Source: a phage
Direction: 5' to 3' (one strand)
Sequence record: PZ445425.1
DNA length: 60,068 nt
Under the pieces are notes generated by a model. It made no database searches and was not told the DNA's origin. It was given only the letters and a program-made list of their open reading frames with translations. Positions within the stretch are counted from its first letter, which is position 1. Every line of letters begins with the position of its first letter. Of the stretch, positions 55,246-58,512 are shown in pieces. Position numbers and translations under genes: made by a program.

Positions 55246-55638
55246 ATGCGATTAGTCGTCACCGGAGGTCGAGATTTTAAGCATGTGGAGTATATTTATG
55301 CTCAATTGGATAAGCTGCATATGCAAAGAAGGATAACCACACTTCGCCACGGTGACGCTGACGGTGTTGACCGGATTTGCGCACATTGGGCGGAGCGCAA
55401 CGGTATTAAGACAGAAGCGTTCCCTGCCCCGTGGGACAATCTTTCCTTACCAAATACCAAGATACGGTATAACGCCAAGGGTGCTTATAATGCACAAGCT
55501 GGCGCTTACCGCAATCAATTAATGCTGGATACCGATCCTAAACCGGATCACGCTATTGTGTTTCCTGGCGGAGCTGGTACTATGGATATGTACAGACGGA
55601 TTAAAGCATCCGGTATTCCTTACACTTTAGCGGAGTAA
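55246..55638 (+). CDS. Rossmann-like protein, possibly SLOG/DUF2493-like
   Basis: N-terminal VVTGGRDF Gly-rich loop and GDADGVD motif; weak assignment. Confidence 0.3.
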   Translation: MRLVVTGGRDFKHVEYIYAQLDKLHMQRRITTLRHGDADGVDRICAHWAERNGIKTEAFPAPWDNLSLPNTKIRYNAKGAYNAQAGAYRNQLMLDTDPKPDHAIVFPGGAGTMDMYRRIKASGIPYTLAE

Positions 55639-55641
55639 ATA

Positions 55642-56112
55642 ATGGCTGACGTTAAAACTATTGTTGATGCAATGGACGAATCCAAAGACTGCCAACTGAA
55701 GAAGTCGTTTGAAGTAAAACAGGTTACAGAGACTCAGTTGGTTTGCAATTTTGCGCGTTATTGTGGACTGGGGCGCGGGAAAGACTGGAACGGGCTTATT
55801 GTTATGCCCACATCACAGATCCTCGTTTACGTCCGCAACGTTGTAGAAGATGTTCTGCGTCTTCAGGTTGAAATCGGTGACGTAGAAATTAACATGACCG
55901 CGAGCTCTACCATTGTGGTTAAATGGCAGTCGGGCGAGACACTGCGTTTGGAAGCGTGCCATTGTGCTAAGAGCCTACACCACCTGCGCGGTTGTCATTA
56001 CCAGTTCGTTGGGTTTGTACATCCGCAAGGGTTAAGCGAGCGTACGGCGCTGGTAGCGCGTTTGCTGCTGCGTCCTTATAATAACGAGCCGGAAGTTATA
56101 TACGAGGCATAA
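55642..56112 (+). CDS. hypothetical protein
   Basis: 156-aa ORF. Confidence 0.45.
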   Translation: MADVKTIVDAMDESKDCQLKKSFEVKQVTETQLVCNFARYCGLGRGKDWNGLIVMPTSQILVYVRNVVEDVLRLQVEIGDVEINMTASSTIVVKWQSGETLRLEACHCAKSLHHLRGCHYQFVGFVHPQGLSERTALVARLLLRPYNNEPEVIYEA

Positions 56113-56113
56113 A

Positions 56114-56539
56114 ATGTCAGTAAATTTTGTCAAACAGCCAACTTTAAATACATGCGTTTCTGCGTGTTTGGCAATGATCCTTAATAAACCTGTTGAGAAG
56201 GTCATTGAGGAATTTCACAGTCGTTATTATAACAACTGGGAAATCACTATCAGCGAATATTTGACTAAAAATGGCGTCCAGCATCATTGTTCAGAAGGTG
56301 GTGGGCGTGAAACTTTGCATATGGGAGGTTTATTCCTGTGCACGGTGCCAAGTCTTAATATTCCTGGCGCATTGCACCAGATTGTGATTGATATGACGGA
56401 TCACAAGTTTATTGTGCATGATCCAATTAAAGGATGGGAAGGTAAAAAGTTCTATGTTGGTCCGGATCAAGATCCTGAGGAACCTGGAGCTTTTATCATT
56501 CATACTTGGGTCAAAGACGTTGAAATCCTGCCTTATTAA
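56114..56539 (+). CDS. papain-like cysteine peptidase (C39-like)
   Basis: QPTLNTCVSACLAMIL closely matches the C39 Q...C...ACLAMIL motif; downstream HQIVID His candidate. Confidence 0.5.
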   Translation: MSVNFVKQPTLNTCVSACLAMILNKPVEKVIEEFHSRYYNNWEITISEYLTKNGVQHHCSEGGGRETLHMGGLFLCTVPSLNIPGALHQIVIDMTDHKFIVHDPIKGWEGKKFYVGPDQDPEEPGAFIIHTWVKDVEILPY

Positions 56540-56601
56540 TTTTCTTGCTATCACATAACCCTTCATTGTATTGTGTACCCATCGAATAAGAGGGGTACAC
56601 A

Positions 56602-56787
56602 ATGACCAAACTATACGCCGGATTGTTTTTATTTGCGACGTTAATGTTCGCTGGACTTTATACCTATACAGTAGTCGAACAACCTTCCACGGTTATCCGA
56701 ATCTTTGCAAGTACAGGGCTTTGCATCTGTCTTATTCTATTTGTTTTATGCATTGTTATTATCCAAGACCAAAGGAAAGTTAAATGA
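56602..56787 (+). CDS. small membrane protein
   Basis: 61 aa with two hydrophobic helices; start codon follows a hairpin gtgtaccc...gggtacac. Confidence 0.45.
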   Translation: MTKLYAGLFLFATLMFAGLYTYTVVEQPSTVIRIFASTGLCICLILFVLCIVIIQDQRKVK

Positions 56788-57254
56788 CTGAAGAATGGAA
56801 AAGAATACCTTTATTTCCAAAGTATGAGGTTTCTACTTTAGGTAGAGTTAGGAGGGCTAACAACCACAAAATATTGACAGGCTGCATATTAGATGGTCGT
56901 AGACGTTATACTTTGCGTCACAATGGTAAGAAATACGGTGTTGATGCTGCAAGATTGATGTGTTACGCATTTCGTGGTCTTGTCGACGGTTATGAGAAAC
57001 TAGATGCACGACATCTTGATGGCAATCCTTTGAATAATGTATTATCTAACGTAGATTGGGGTACACGTAAGGATAACATGGTGGACATGGTTCATCATGG
57101 TAACGCTTGTCATTCGTTTACAAAGGAAGAAGTTCTAAGTATCCGGCAACGAGCAGATGCCGGGGAAAGTCAACACGCTATAGCAAGAAGTATTGGCAGA
57201 AGCGTATCCGTTGTTAACTGTATTGTATTAAGAAAGACTTATAACGAATATTAA
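56784..57254 (+). CDS. HNH homing endonuclease
   Basis: NUMOD4-like N-terminus (WKRIPLFPKYEVSTLGRV), HNH core HLDGNPLNN and C-terminal HTH-like segment. Confidence 0.7.
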   Translation: MTEEWKRIPLFPKYEVSTLGRVRRANNHKILTGCILDGRRRYTLRHNGKKYGVDAARLMCYAFRGLVDGYEKLDARHLDGNPLNNVLSNVDWGTRKDNMVDMVHHGNACHSFTKEEVLSIRQRADAGESQHAIARSIGRSVSVVNCIVLRKTYNEY

Positions 57255-57266
57255 TGGGGGTGGGTT

Positions 57267-57731
57267 ATCACTACTATTGCGTTCGATGGAAAAGTATTAG
57301 CTGCGGACCGTGGAGTTATGCGCGGGGAAGCTGTGACTGCTTATAAGAAAGTTCATAGCGTAAATGGACATCGTGGACGGTTTTTACTTGGCTTGTGCGG
57401 TTTGACGGCATTTACCGATCAGGTGTTGCGTTATTTTAATAGCGCGGAACCTGTTAAGTTCCCTGATATTAAACTTTACAGTAAAGATGATGATTACGGG
57501 CAAACTTGCGGTCTTGCTGTCACTCCGGAAGGTACTTGCCATTTTATTTATAATGATGGTACTTTGAGCGAGCCCATGCTGGATGGATGGGGATCTGAGG
57601 GTAGCGGTTGTGTGTTTGCCGCTGGTGCATTAGCCGCTGGTGCAAGCGCAAGCGAAGCTATTGAGCTGGCAATTAAACACACCACATGCGCATTCCTGGG
57701 AGTTGATACAATATCATTTGAGGGTTTTTAA
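57267..57731 (+). CDS. HslV/proteasome-beta-like Ntn-hydrolase peptidase, apparent non-AUG start
   Basis: Frame open from 57255; TTIAFDGKVLAAD, YKKV and GSEGSG segments align with HslV; no in-frame ATG/GTG/TTG precedes the catalytic Thr; ATC at 57267 follows a G-rich SD-like tract. Confidence 0.5.
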   Translation: MTTIAFDGKVLAADRGVMRGEAVTAYKKVHSVNGHRGRFLLGLCGLTAFTDQVLRYFNSAEPVKFPDIKLYSKDDDYGQTCGLAVTPEGTCHFIYNDGTLSEPMLDGWGSEGSGCVFAAGALAAGASASEAIELAIKHTTCAFLGVDTISFEGF

Positions 57732-57992
57732 ATGACTACATTCAGTCACCTGATCCCACCTGCTTATCATAGTAAGGTAGTTGACCACGGGACGCATGTT
57801 GTAATTGGTGGCGAAATCTTTATCACAGATAACGAGGAAATCGCCATTGCAATTATTGACAGCACTCAGCATGACTTTATGGTTATCCTGCAACACGAAC
57901 CCGATAACTTCACTTTTTACTCCAGCTACGGGGTCGATAAAGGTGGAAAAGGTCTTGTTGGCTGGTACATTAGCGAGTGGTTTGACGGGTAA
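57732..57992 (+). CDS. hypothetical protein
   Basis: 86-aa ORF starting immediately after HslV-like stop. Confidence 0.45.
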   Translation: MTTFSHLIPPAYHSKVVDHGTHVVIGGEIFITDNEEIAIAIIDSTQHDFMVILQHEPDNFTFYSSYGVDKGGKGLVGWYISEWFDG

Positions 57993-58074
57993 TTTTCTTA
58001 GATCAATTCTCCTTGCGCCGTATCAAGTTTCTCTGTTACCCTTGAGTGGTTCATGTCAAGCGGAGGAACTCGAT

Positions 58075-58512
58075 ATGGCACTTCAACCTCGTGGTATTCG
58101 TAATAACAATCCAGGCAATATTCGCTGGGGTGATAATTGGCAGGGCTTAGTTCCTGCTGATAAGCGAACCGATAAATCTTTTGCTCAATTCACGCAACCG
58201 ATTTACGGCATTCGTGCGCTAGCGAAAATCCTGACAAACTACACCAAACGTGAAGGCTTGCCCCATGTGGGTAAGAAAAACATCGACACTGTACGTGAAA
58301 TTATCGCTCGCTGGGCACCGCCTAACGAAAACGATACGGAAGCGTATATTCGCTCTGTTGCCAAAGCAATTGGTGTTCAACCTAACGATCCAATTAATGT
58401 CTTCGACAAGGCAATTATGTCAGGATTGGTGAAAGCAATCATTCGTCATGAAAATGGCATGATGCCCTATACCGATGACGTAATTAACCGCGCTATTGCA
58501 ATGGTACTTTAA
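58075..58512 (+). CDS. putative endolysin
   Basis: Track ORF 57805..58512 trimmed to ATG 58075 (RBS GGAGGA); first gene of holin-spanin cassette; conserved-looking GIRNNNPGNIRWG segment; enzymatic class unknown. Confidence 0.4.
   Translation: MALQPRGIRNNNPGNIRWGDNWQGLVPADKRTDKSFAQFTQPIYGIRALAKILTNYTKREGLPHVGKKNIDTVREIIARWAPPNENDTEAYIRSVAKAIGVQPNDPINVFDKAIMSGLVKAIIRHENGMMPYTDDVINRAIAMVL

What the first reader, a model, noticed from the sequence alone, without database searches (positions are those of the whole stretch)
57255..57731. HslV/proteasome-like peptidase gene lacking an AUG before its catalytic threonine
The frame beginning right after the HNH stop reads WGWVI-TTIAFDGKVLAADRGV..., which aligns with the N-terminus and later blocks of HslV (MTTIVSV..., KKV, GSGG). 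An Ntn hydrolase needs Thr at position 1 of the mature protein, yet the only in-frame ATG (57318) lies 15 codons past it. ATC at 57267 follows a G-rich SD-like tract (GGGGGTGGG) and would give M-TTIA, mirroring MTTIV of HslV. The same frame continues from the HNH ORF across one TAA. A phage proteasome-like protease with AUC initiation or readthrough would be unusual.
Basis: partly seen in the sequence, partly recalled or inferred. Interest (0 to 1): 0.7.

Follow-up and report, generated by a model that had tools for sequence, protein, structure and literature searches.

The report
Homing endonuclease stole peptidase's start codon
In this E. coli phage a selfish homing-endonuclease gene has landed on the start codon of a small proteasome-like peptidase gene and taken it over, leaving the peptidase with a strong ribosome-binding site and the rare near-start codon ATC, a tidy natural curiosity but not a new kind of system.

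Summary
Window 57267-57731 encodes a 154-aa member of the phage "peptidase HslV family" (phrog_1040). Profile and predicted fold match HslV and proteasome beta, and the catalytic-type Thr is at codon 2. No ATG, GTG or TTG precedes that Thr.

The window is Escherichia phage SeppeHuegi (Bas24, Seuratvirus). All 34 related phage records found lack the HNH gene. Every one I read at this junction starts the peptidase with ATG directly before two Thr codons, overlapping the upstream gene's stop.

Here a 483-nt cassette carrying an I-HmuI-like HNH homing endonuclease sits exactly at that ATG. The HNH gene uses the old ATG and ribosome-binding site. The peptidase is left with TAA-T-GGGGGTGGGTT-ATC-ACT-ACT.

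Seven independent assemblies share this junction, so it is not a sequencing error. The HNH genes differ by up to 17%, yet the 12-nt spacer and the ATC never change base (P about 0.001).

The most likely mechanism, inferred and not shown, is Shine-Dalgarno-driven initiation at AUC. It is probably coupled to HNH termination and would give Met-Thr, then Thr1. Readthrough and frameshifting are disfavoured by a 6-G variant. A silenced or weakly expressed gene remains a serious rival.

The parts
56602..56787 (+). Upstream 61-aa gene (phrog_22841; hydrophobic sequence, probably a small membrane protein). Its TGA stop overlaps the ATG at 56784 (ATGA).
   Evidence: The same ATGA overlap with the peptidase ATG is seen in Seurat and CAjan.
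56772..56779 (+). Ancestral ribosome-binding site of the peptidase gene (AAGGAAAG), now serving the HNH gene.
   Evidence: Identical sequence lies upstream of ATGACCACA in the endonuclease-free relatives. Anti-SD duplex energy -5.6 kcal/mol.
56784..57254 (+). Free-standing HNH homing-endonuclease gene (156 aa; NUMOD4, HNH_3 and HTH domains; I-HmuI-like). It starts at what is the peptidase's ATG in other phages.
   Evidence: Pfam; phrog_59 at E 8e-33; I-HmuI 1U3E at E 4e-6 with the HxDGNxxNN motif aligned. Absent from all 34 related phage records. GenBank QXV84550.1 'putative homing endonuclease'.
56784..57266 (+). The 483-nt inserted cassette: HNH ORF plus 12-nt spacer. It can equally be drawn as 56789-57271, because ATGAC and ATCAC flank it.
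   Evidence: Comparison with Seurat, CAjan, PLYYY01, RCIP0359, ECP2304 and phiG7.
57255..57266 (+). Cassette-borne spacer TGGGGGTGGGTT holding the new Shine-Dalgarno site (GGGGGTG, 57256-57262). It ends 4 nt before the ATC; the GGAGG-equivalent core ends 6 nt before it.
   Evidence: -9.7 kcal/mol, top 0.36% of 12-mers. No base substitution in six sequences whose HNH 4-fold sites vary at 43%, P about 0.0013; the only change is one G-run length variant.
57267..57269 (+). ATC, at the position of the family's start codon. Proposed near-cognate initiation codon.
   Evidence: Aligns with the ATG of Seurat and CAjan. Conserved in 7 assemblies. It is the only near-cognate codon between the TAA and the Thr codon.
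57267..57731 (+). HslV/proteasome-like Thr-nucleophile peptidase gene (154 codons plus stop).
57270..57275 (+). Thr-Thr codons ACT ACT. Endonuclease-free alleles have ACC ACA or ACA ACC. These silent changes always travel with the cassette. 57270-57272 encodes the presumed catalytic Thr1.
   Evidence: T2 is invariant in the family alignment.
57245..57285 (+). Predicted RNA hairpin enclosing the HNH stop codon, the SD site, the AUC and peptidase codons 2-6.
   Evidence: -12.7 kcal/mol, z -2.3 against shuffles. The same shape is predicted in all six variants at -8.3 to -12.7. The three cassette-linked substitutions raise its stability from -8.2 to -12.7. No covariation support.
57318..57320 (+). 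Internal ATG (codon 18), used as the start in GenBank (QXV84551.1, 137 aa). A product from here would lack Thr1 and Asp14.
   Evidence: This Met is Thr in the cluster representative P0020. In another endonuclease-carrying contig the caller chose a GTG at codon 23 instead (P0190).
57254..57346 (+). Out-of-frame 30-codon ORF starting at the ATG that overlaps the HNH stop (TAATG). Probably a decoy or irrelevant.
   Evidence: Its frame relation to the peptidase changes in the 6-G variant L010.
57732..57992 (+). Downstream 86-aa gene (phrog_23528). Its ATG abuts the peptidase stop (TAAATG).

Best explanation
A free-standing I-HmuI-type HNH homing-endonuclease cassette inserted exactly at the start of a phage HslV-like Thr-nucleophile peptidase gene. 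The endonuclease gene took over the peptidase's ATG, its ribosome-binding site and its ATGA coupling to the upstream gene. The cassette supplies a 12-nt spacer with a strong Shine-Dalgarno site at its 3' end, and the peptidase's own start codon now reads ATC. I infer that the peptidase is still made, at a reduced level. A ribosome, either recruited by the SD site or just released at the HNH stop 13 nt upstream after melting the hairpin that hides the SD site and AUC, would initiate at AUC with fMet-tRNA. Deformylase and methionine aminopeptidase would then expose Thr1, giving the same mature protein as in endonuclease-free phages. Shown here: the insertion, the family membership, and the conservation of the spacer, ATC and ACT ACT. 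Inferred: use of AUC, the coupling to HNH termination, and peptidase activity. The ATG-to-ATC change and the two silent Thr-codon changes may protect the carrier genome from its own endonuclease or stabilise the hairpin. That last point is speculation.
For: Relatives lacking the insert start the gene with ATG directly before two Thr codons: TAAATGACCACAATTGCG = MTTIAFDG in Seurat, CAjan, PLYYY01 and RCIP0359, and ATGACAACC in ECP2304 and phiG7. The left flank is identical up to ATGAC, and the HNH ORF begins at that ATG. Among the 166 family proteins examined, 149 start MT, 10 MS and 4 VT (a GTG start); the three exceptions carry an MTT or TT motif a few residues in, so there is no sign of propeptides. 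T2, D14 and G112/G114 are invariant and K28 nearly so, aligning with HslV's GD, KK and GSG blocks. The SD site is strong and well spaced. Seven independent assemblies share the junction. HNH alleles differ by up to 80 of 468 nt (46 synonymous against 19 non-synonymous codons), so the element is old and functional. Yet 57240-57277 has no substitution, and the probability that the 12 spacer sites stay invariant is about 0.0013. The 6-G variant changes the SD-to-AUC spacing by 1 nt. SD-driven initiation tolerates that; frame-dependent mechanisms do not. The 17 codons upstream of the internal ATG show 4 synonymous and 0 non-synonymous differences among carrier alleles. In E. coli AUC initiates at 1-2% of the AUG level, with an N-terminal Met confirmed by mass spectrometry (Hecht et al., bioRxiv 10.1101/063800). 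Thr is an accepted residue after Met for methionine aminopeptidase (established knowledge).
Against: There is no protein-level or ribosome-profiling evidence. AUC is a poor start codon, and the predicted hairpin would lower free initiation further. The intact peptidase ORF is weak evidence of selection in carrier genomes for two reasons. The look-up that found the contigs required an identical 137-aa protein. The HNH and peptidase histories are also decoupled, so the ORF may be refreshed by recombination with insert-free phages (window vs L009, HNH 3 differences and peptidase 17; L011 vs L009, HNH 78 and peptidase 5). Conservation of the spacer could serve the endonuclease's own biology, for example an RNA 3' structure or self-immunity, and not peptidase translation. 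A metagenomic contig (L015) lacks the peptidase start altogether, hinting that the gene may be dispensable.
Confidence: 0.5

Rival explanations
1. The insertion effectively silenced the peptidase or made it strongly hypomorphic. The gene is dispensable, and the ORF stays intact only because recombination with insert-free phages keeps refreshing it. Any product comes from the internal ATG 57318 and is a dead fragment.
For: No canonical start codon precedes the Thr, and AUC gives only 1-2% of the AUG level. A hairpin is predicted to sequester the SD site and AUC. HNH and peptidase histories are decoupled. The L015 contig has the first four codons deleted. GenBank annotates only the 137-aa fragment.
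Against: The cassette-specific spacer carrying a top-0.4% SD site at correct spacing is invariant across alleles that differ by 17%. A dead junction would be expected to drift. The codon before the Thr remains a near-cognate start in all seven assemblies. All changes in codons 2-17 are synonymous. The internal Met18 is not conserved.
Confidence: 0.33
2. Readthrough of the HNH TAA produces an HNH-peptidase fusion that cleaves itself before Thr, as proteasome beta propeptides do.
For: In the window and four other carrier contigs read through the junction (L009, L011, L013, L014) the HNH and peptidase frames coincide, since the cassette is 483 = 3 x 161 nt.
Against: L010 has six Gs, which puts the peptidase out of frame with HNH. 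UAA followed by U is a very efficient E. coli terminator (established knowledge). Among the 166 family members examined there is no sign of a propeptide. The residue before the Thr would be Ile, not the Gly typical of proteasome autoprocessing sites (established knowledge).
Confidence: 0.03
3. Translation starts at the ATG overlapping the HNH stop (57254, TAATG) and shifts +1 into the peptidase frame within the G-rich tract.
For: The ATG at 57254 is ideally placed for termination-reinitiation. The tract GGGGGUGGGUUAUC loosely recalls the SD-stimulated prfB +1 frameshift site (the resemblance is recalled from memory).
Against: There is no slippery codon or stop-codon pause. The product would be MGV...-TTIA with no way of exposing Thr1. 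The required shift changes from +1 to +2 or -1 in the 6-G variant.
Confidence: 0.02
4. Sequencing or assembly error: the true sequence has ATG at 57267, or a G-run length that puts ATG 57254 in frame.
For: The G-run is a homopolymer, and one contig differs in its length.
Against: An isolate genome plus six independent metagenome or read-archive assemblies all read ATC. Neither 5 nor 6 Gs puts ATG 57254 in frame.
Confidence: 0.01
5. The insert is a self-splicing intron, or an intein-like in-frame element, that is removed to restore ATG-ACT-ACT.
For: Joining ATGAC to TACTATT would restore MTTIA in frame. I-HmuI-type enzymes are often encoded in introns.
Against: 471 of the 483 nt are ORF, which leaves no room for a ribozyme core. 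No Rfam family matches, even at E = 10. The 3' boundary lacks the terminal G of group I introns (established knowledge). The in-frame TAA excludes an intein.
Confidence: 0.01

Closest known systems
HslV (ClpQ) and proteasome beta subunits (MEROPS family T1)
   Same: Predicted fold. N-terminal Thr directly after the initiator position. An Asp, Lys and Gly-Ser-Gly pattern aligned with HslV's D17, K33 and GSG. No propeptide, as in HslV.
   Different: Only 154 aa, against about 175. About 17-20% identity to HslV and proteasome beta chains. Below the Pfam PF00227 gathering score as a single sequence. I did not look for an HslU partner in the window. No activity has been tested.
Phage 'peptidase HslV family' (phrog_1040), e.g. 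Seurat gp84 YP_009152028 and CAjan gp86 YP_009196880
   Same: Same 154-residue sequence apart from the initiator codon, and the same position upstream of the lysis genes.
   Different: Those genes start with ATG overlapping the upstream stop. Here that ATG belongs to the HNH gene and the peptidase has ATC.
AUU-initiated E. coli genes infC and pcnB, and reporter data for AUC
   Same: A near-cognate AUH start codon read by fMet-tRNA and giving low output. AUC gives 1-2% of the AUG level with an N-terminal Met.
   Different: Those use AUU and are experimentally confirmed; infC uses it for autoregulation. Here the codon is AUC, it arose next to a mobile-element insertion, and its use is unproven.
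mobE inserted in nrdA of Aeromonas phage Aeh1 ('genes in pieces'), and other free-standing endonucleases of T-even phages (Seg and Mob; review PMC2988022, listed, not read)
   Same: A free-standing endonuclease gene inserted into or next to a host gene, using the host operon's expression signals. Presence/absence polymorphism among close relatives, with sequence differences flanking the insertion site. (This comparison is from my own knowledge.)
   Different: Here the insertion is at codon 1. Nothing of the host protein is split off; only its start codon and ribosome-binding site are taken, and the cassette brings a replacement SD site.
I-HmuI (PDB 1U3E), an intron-encoded HNH nicking endonuclease of Bacillus phage SPO1
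   Same: N-terminal NUMOD4-like and HNH region, E 4e-6, with the catalytic HxDGNxxNN motif aligned.
   Different: Free-standing, not intron-encoded. About 30% identity. The C-terminal HTH differs. Target and cleavage were not tested.

Membership tests
Proteasome/HslV N-terminal-nucleophile peptidases (T1) | Ntn-hydrolase alpha-beta-beta-alpha sandwich fold | tested here: met
   AlphaFold2 model with pLDDT 95.4 and pTM 0.90. Top Foldseek PDB matches are HslV, proteasome beta5 and BPH, probability 1.00, TM-score 0.6-0.68 normalised to the query.
Proteasome/HslV N-terminal-nucleophile peptidases (T1) | Sequence-profile homology to the family | tested here: met
   The family profile hits HslV chains at E 2.4e-9 and proteasome beta at 1e-5 to 1e-6. 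The single sequence against Pfam PF00227 scores only 15.4 bits against a cut-off of 22.4.
Proteasome/HslV N-terminal-nucleophile peptidases (T1) | Catalytic Thr at residue 1 of the mature chain, plus conserved Asp17, Lys33 and Gly-Ser-Gly equivalents | tested here: inconclusive
   T2, D14 and G112/G114 are invariant and K28 is at least 90% conserved in the family alignment, aligned to the HslV blocks. Whether Thr becomes residue 1 in this phage depends on initiation at ATC, which was not shown.
Proteasome/HslV N-terminal-nucleophile peptidases (T1) | Ring oligomer, and for HslV an AAA+ partner (HslU) | not tested
   No multimer prediction was made, and the window's proteins were not searched for an HslU homologue.
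phrog_1040 'peptidase HslV family' | Significant match to the family HMM over its full length | tested here: met
   E 1.5e-30, residues 2-152. Identical to the Seurat and CAjan proteins apart from residue 1.
Free-standing homing endonuclease gene | Endonuclease domains with an intact catalytic motif | tested here: met
   NUMOD4 E 5.7e-8, above cut-off. HNH_3 24.5 bits against a cut-off of 24.8 (borderline), and HTH_38 below cut-off. phrog_59 at 8e-33. I-HmuI at 4e-6 with HxDGNxxNN aligned.
Free-standing homing endonuclease gene | Presence/absence polymorphism at one precise site among near-identical genomes, and a history decoupled from the flanks | tested here: met
   Absent from 34 related phage records that are 93-98% identical in the flanks. 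Precise junctions. HNH and peptidase divergences are discordant.
Free-standing homing endonuclease gene | Cleaves the insert-free allele; the carrier allele is resistant | not testable with these tools
   Only the three carrier-linked substitutions next to the insertion point (ATG to ATC, ACC to ACT, ACA to ACT) are seen.
Group I intron with an endonuclease ORF | Ribozyme core detectable by covariance model; room for P1-P9 | tested here: not met
   No Rfam match at E up to 10 in 56400-57800. 471 of the 483 inserted nt are ORF.
Genes with a near-cognate (AUH) start codon | SD site at functional spacing, a conserved codon, and no canonical alternative that gives a functional protein | tested here: met
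Genes with a near-cognate (AUH) start codon | Protein N-terminus or ribosome initiation mapped to the codon | not testable with these tools
   No proteomic or ribosome-profiling data for this phage were found.

The most novel reading that the evidence does not exclude
The endonuclease cassette is an evolved 'take the start, give one back' module. It captures the host gene's ATG and ribosome-binding site for itself. It then restores host-gene expression through its own 12-nt SD adapter and termination-coupled initiation at AUC. The ATG-to-ATC change is maintained by selection because the G is a key contact of the endonuclease (self-immunity) and/or because the C closes the regulatory hairpin. 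This would be a naturally conserved, functionally required AUC start codon in a coliphage, created by conflict between a selfish element and its host gene.
Probability: 0.25. Interest if true: 0.55.

Novelty: new variant of a known kind. Interest (0 to 1): 0.4.

Why it matters
The peptidase family itself is already known and annotated. The interest lies in the junction. It shows base by base how a homing endonuclease can land on a start codon without obviously destroying the host gene, and it offers a natural, conserved candidate for AUC initiation in an E. coli phage. According to Hecht et al., only AUU at infC and pcnB is confirmed as a non-canonical start in E. coli. It also gives a clean experimental system, using the BASEL phages Bas24 (carrier) and Bas22 (KurtStettler, insert-free). 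These could be used to test whether target-site immunity can force a start codon out of the canonical set. On the practical side, the GenBank protein QXV84551.1 (137 aa) is almost certainly mis-started, and gene callers will repeat that error on every genome carrying the insert.

Tried and rejected
- **More carrier alleles and donors.** Two IMG/VR pattern scans for the junction and one protein-based scan for the HNH found nothing relevant. The GTDB genome scan found nothing. E. coli complete genomes gave no match. The metagenome scan returned only the contig already in hand.
- **An insert-free allele with ATG-ACT-ACT, or a cassette-deleted ATC allele.** Only chance matches in unrelated contigs.
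- **Contexts of the nearest distant HNH relatives** (P0002 at 41% and P0003 at 35% identity). They sit in unrelated neighbourhoods with no HslV-like gene.
- **Direct look-up of the other HNH cluster members** (P0009, P0012, P0013, P0016). I used the 137-aa fragment as a proxy instead, which biases that sample towards identical peptidases.
- **Intron hypothesis.** Rejected by Rfam and by lack of space for a ribozyme.
- **HNH paralogues elsewhere in the window**, sought as analogous junctions. None found.
- **NCBIfam.** No match for either protein.
- **Literature.** I found no description of this junction or of Bas24's peptidase.
- **Hairpin significance.** Modest only: z -0.9 for the 121-nt context and -2.3 for the 48-nt core. 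There are too few variants for a covariation test.

Full report
**1. What is in the sequence**

The HNH ORF (56784-57254) ends in TAA at 57252-57254. The same frame continues TGG GGG TGG GTT ATC ACT ACT ATT GCG..., giving WGWVI-TTIAFDGKVLAADRGV..., and runs to a TAA stop at 57729-57731. The mechanical ORF list puts the first ATG/GTG/TTG of that frame at 57318. That is codon 18 counted from ATC 57267.

**2. What the protein is**

- As a single sequence it only grazes Pfam Proteasome (E 0.015, below the cut-off).
- It matches phrog_1040 "peptidase HslV family" at E 1.5e-30.
- A search of 5.8 billion proteins gave close relatives at 63-97% identity, all in Seuratvirus-like phage contigs of about 60 kb, and a tail at 30-35% identity.
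- A profile of these 22 sequences finds 11,438 cluster representatives in the 1.84-billion-protein library, 7,883 of them at E ≤ 1e-10.
- The same profile hits HslV chains in the PDB (best 2.4e-9) and proteasome beta subunits and BPH (1e-4 to 1e-6).
- The AlphaFold2 model is confident (pLDDT 95.4, pTM 0.90). Its best Foldseek matches are HslV, proteasome beta5 and BPH (probability 1.00, TM-score about 0.6-0.68 normalised to the query).
- In the family alignment T2, D14 and G112/G114 are invariant and K28 is at least 90% conserved. They align with HslV's GD, KK and GSG blocks.
- Of the 166 family proteins examined, 149 begin MT, 10 MS and 4 VT (a GTG start). The three exceptions carry an MTT or TT motif a few residues in.

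The family rule is therefore an initiator Met directly before the nucleophile, with no propeptide, as in HslV. This gene is a small HslV-type Thr-nucleophile peptidase of a known and already annotated phage family.

**3. Why the ATG is missing**

The window is Escherichia phage SeppeHuegi (Bas24 of the BASEL collection; the genus is inferred from its near-identical Seuratvirus relatives). Its HNH protein is QXV84550.1, and its peptidase is annotated as the 137-aa QXV84551.1 starting at ATG 57318.

Megablast of 56700-58100 finds 34 related phage records. None contains the HNH gene, and the match splits into two pieces around it. In Seurat, CAjan, PLYYY01 and RCIP0359 the peptidase gene reads ...AAAGGAAA(G/A)TTAAATGACCACAATTGCGTTTGATGG. 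This encodes MTTIAFDG..., and its ATG overlaps the TGA of the upstream 61-aa gene as ATGA. ECP2304 and phiG7 read ATGACAACC at the same place.

In the window the left flank is identical up to ATGAC, then runs into TGAAGAATGG... The HNH protein (MTEEWKRI...) starts at the peptidase's own ATG. At the right end the cassette reads ...GAATATTAATGGGGGTGGGTT, followed by ATC ACT ACT ATT GCG. This parallels ATG ACC ACA ATT GCG codon for codon.

The inserted cassette is 483 nt: the HNH ORF plus a 12-nt spacer. Three substitutions lie directly after it. The start codon changes G to C, and the two Thr codons carry silent changes.

**4. The endonuclease**

- It has NUMOD4, borderline HNH_3 and HTH domains.
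- It matches phrog_59 at 8e-33 and I-HmuI (PDB 1U3E) at 4e-6, with the HxDGNxxNN motif aligned.
- No phage record encodes a relative above 36% identity.
- There is no Rfam match in 56400-57800 even at E 10, and 471 of the 483 inserted nt are ORF. It is therefore free-standing and not intron-borne.

**5. Not an error, and not recent**

The 90%-identity HNH cluster has 13 members from isolates, metagenomes and read-archive assemblies. I could read the junction in six other assemblies:

- PPYE01311188 (L007/L009)
- ERR14033104 (L008)
- SRR14307646 (L010)
- ERZ27227486 (L011)
- ERR15951206 (L013)
- SRR18751103 (L014)

All have TAATGGGGGTGGGTTATCACTACT, except that L010 has six Gs.

The HNH alleles differ from the window's by 3 to 80 of 468 nt. 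L011 has 46 synonymous and 19 non-synonymous codon changes. The element is therefore old and under purifying selection. Across the six aligned sequences, 43% of the 4-fold sites in the HNH gene vary, yet 57240-57277 shows no substitution at all. The chance that all 12 spacer positions stay invariant at that rate is about 0.0013.

HNH and peptidase divergences are discordant:

| Comparison | HNH differences (nt) | Peptidase differences (nt) |
|---|---|---|
| Window vs L009 | 3 | 17 |
| L011 vs L009 | 78 | 5 |

The cassette and its flank have therefore been reshuffled by recombination or homing. As a result, the intact peptidase ORF cannot by itself be read as selection acting within carrier genomes. 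The look-up that retrieved these contigs also required an identical 137-aa protein, which biases the sample.

**6. How the peptidase could be expressed**

- GGGGGTG (57256-57262) pairs with the 16S rRNA tail at -9.7 kcal/mol. This is in the top 0.36% of + strand 12-mers. It is stronger than about 91% of the sites upstream of the 56 long ATG ORFs in the window, and stronger than the gene's ancestral site at -5.6.
- It ends 4 nt before the ATC. The GGAGG-equivalent core ends 6 nt before it.
- ATC is the only near-cognate codon between the TAA and the Thr codon, and it lies exactly where the family's initiator lies.
- In E. coli reporters AUC initiates at 1-2% of the AUG level, and mass spectrometry shows an N-terminal Met (Hecht et al.).
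- Thr is an acceptable residue after Met for methionine aminopeptidase (established knowledge), so the mature protein would begin with Thr1 as in other phages.
- A hairpin is predicted at 57245-57285. It encloses the HNH stop codon, the SD site, the AUC and peptidase codons 2-6, at -12.7 kcal/mol (z -2.3). The same shape is predicted in all six variants at -8.3 to -12.7.
- The three cassette-linked substitutions each stabilise this hairpin: -8.2 with ATG ACC ACA against -12.7 with ATC ACT ACT.

This architecture is that of classical translational coupling. A ribosome finishing HNH would melt the stem and be released one base from the SD site and 13 nt from the AUC. This is an inference. The hairpin statistics are modest and there is no covariation support.

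**7. Rival explanations**

- **Readthrough of the TAA, and +1 frameshifting from the overlapping ATG 57254.** Both depend on a fixed frame relation, which the 6-G allele breaks. Readthrough would also need autoprocessing of a propeptide, and none is evident in the family.
- **Initiation at ATG 57318.** The product would lack Thr1 and Asp14. Met18 is not conserved: it is Thr in the cluster representative P0020, and in another carrier contig the caller chose a GTG at codon 23 (P0190).
- **Sequencing error.** Excluded by the seven concordant assemblies.
- **Intron.** Excluded as described in section 4.
- **Silenced or strongly hypomorphic gene.** This is the serious rival. It is compatible with everything except the conservation of the SD spacer and of the near-cognate codon. 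It is mildly supported by L015, a metagenomic contig in which a microhomology deletion (ATTGCG) removes the peptidase's first four codons together with two upstream genes.

**8. Why ATC and not ATG**

A crossover with an insert-free phage cannot restore ATG, because the codon abuts cassette-specific sequence. Only a C-to-G point mutation could. None is seen in alleles whose HNH genes differ by 17%.

Two testable reasons suggest themselves, and neither is shown here. First, all canonical start codons end in G. If that G is a key contact of the endonuclease, the carrier can escape self-cleavage only by moving to an ATH codon. The neighbouring silent ACT ACT changes would fit the same logic, which is known in principle from intronless homing in T-even phages (my own knowledge). 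Second, the C pairs with G58 in the hairpin.

**9. Verdict**

The peptidase is ordinary and already known. The unusual start is real, reproducible and explained by a homing-endonuclease insertion. Functional AUC initiation is the best-supported reading but remains unproven, at a confidence of about 0.5. I rate it a new variant of known phenomena (free-standing endonuclease insertion and near-cognate start codons), of moderate interest. It also implies a clear annotation correction for QXV84551.1.

Noticed in passing
L015 (JGI 3300076503, Ga0563954_02050), about 640-720; corresponds to window ~55950-57280: A metagenomic contig in which the gene homologous to window 55642-56112 is joined, at the shared ATTGCG, directly to peptidase codon 4. 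This deletes the C39-like gene, the 61-aa gene and the peptidase start. It is either a natural deletion mutant, which would suggest the block is dispensable, or an assembly chimera.
   Followed up: partly
L010 (SRR14307646), equivalent to window 57256-57260: The G-run in the spacer is six Gs instead of five, in an allele whose HNH gene differs from the window's by 39 nt. It shifts the SD-to-ATC spacing by one base and breaks the frame relation of the peptidase to both HNH and ATG 57254.
   Followed up: yes
window 57245-57285: The three substitutions that always accompany the cassette (ATG to ATC, ACC to ACT, ACA to ACT) each strengthen a predicted hairpin over the SD site and start codon, from -8.2 to -12.7 kcal/mol. 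This may be a coupling or regulatory element, or a coincidence.
   Followed up: partly
L003 / MZ911962.1 (phage PLYYY01), locus 1501-1965: This insert-free phage has the normal ATG-ACC-ACA start, yet its record annotates the peptidase from the internal ATG (137 aa) and omits the upstream 61-aa gene. This is an annotation error that looks like the carrier situation.
   Followed up: yes
window 56114-56539: The 141-aa protein two genes upstream (phrog_4049) has a weak Peptidase_C39 match at its N-terminus (E 0.037). It is labelled 'cysteine protease' in phage CSP1C. If real, two peptidase genes sit together just upstream of the lysis cassette.
   Followed up: no
window 55246-55638: The 130-aa protein carries PF10686 (YAcAr) in the precomputed hits for related contigs and is labelled 'GTP-binding domain' in Seurat and CAjan. 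I did not examine it.
   Followed up: no
family proteins P0079, P0085, P0112 and others; P0093: Ten of the 166 family proteins examined have Ser instead of Thr at position 2. P0093 is called as VAILTTIAF..., so its true start may be the Leu codon directly before TT. That would be another possible non-ATG start in the family.
   Followed up: no
H15, MH230177.1: 'Aeromonas phage SD04' (host given as Aeromonas schubertii) is 96.5% identical to E. coli Seuratviruses across this region, which is an odd host assignment.
   Followed up: no
window 57729-57734 and 56784-56787: The operon is packed for translational coupling: ATGA between the 61-aa gene and HNH, and TAAATG between the peptidase and the downstream 86-aa gene. 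Weaker peptidase translation in carrier phages could therefore also lower expression of the 86-aa gene, although that gene has its own GAGGG site.
   Followed up: no
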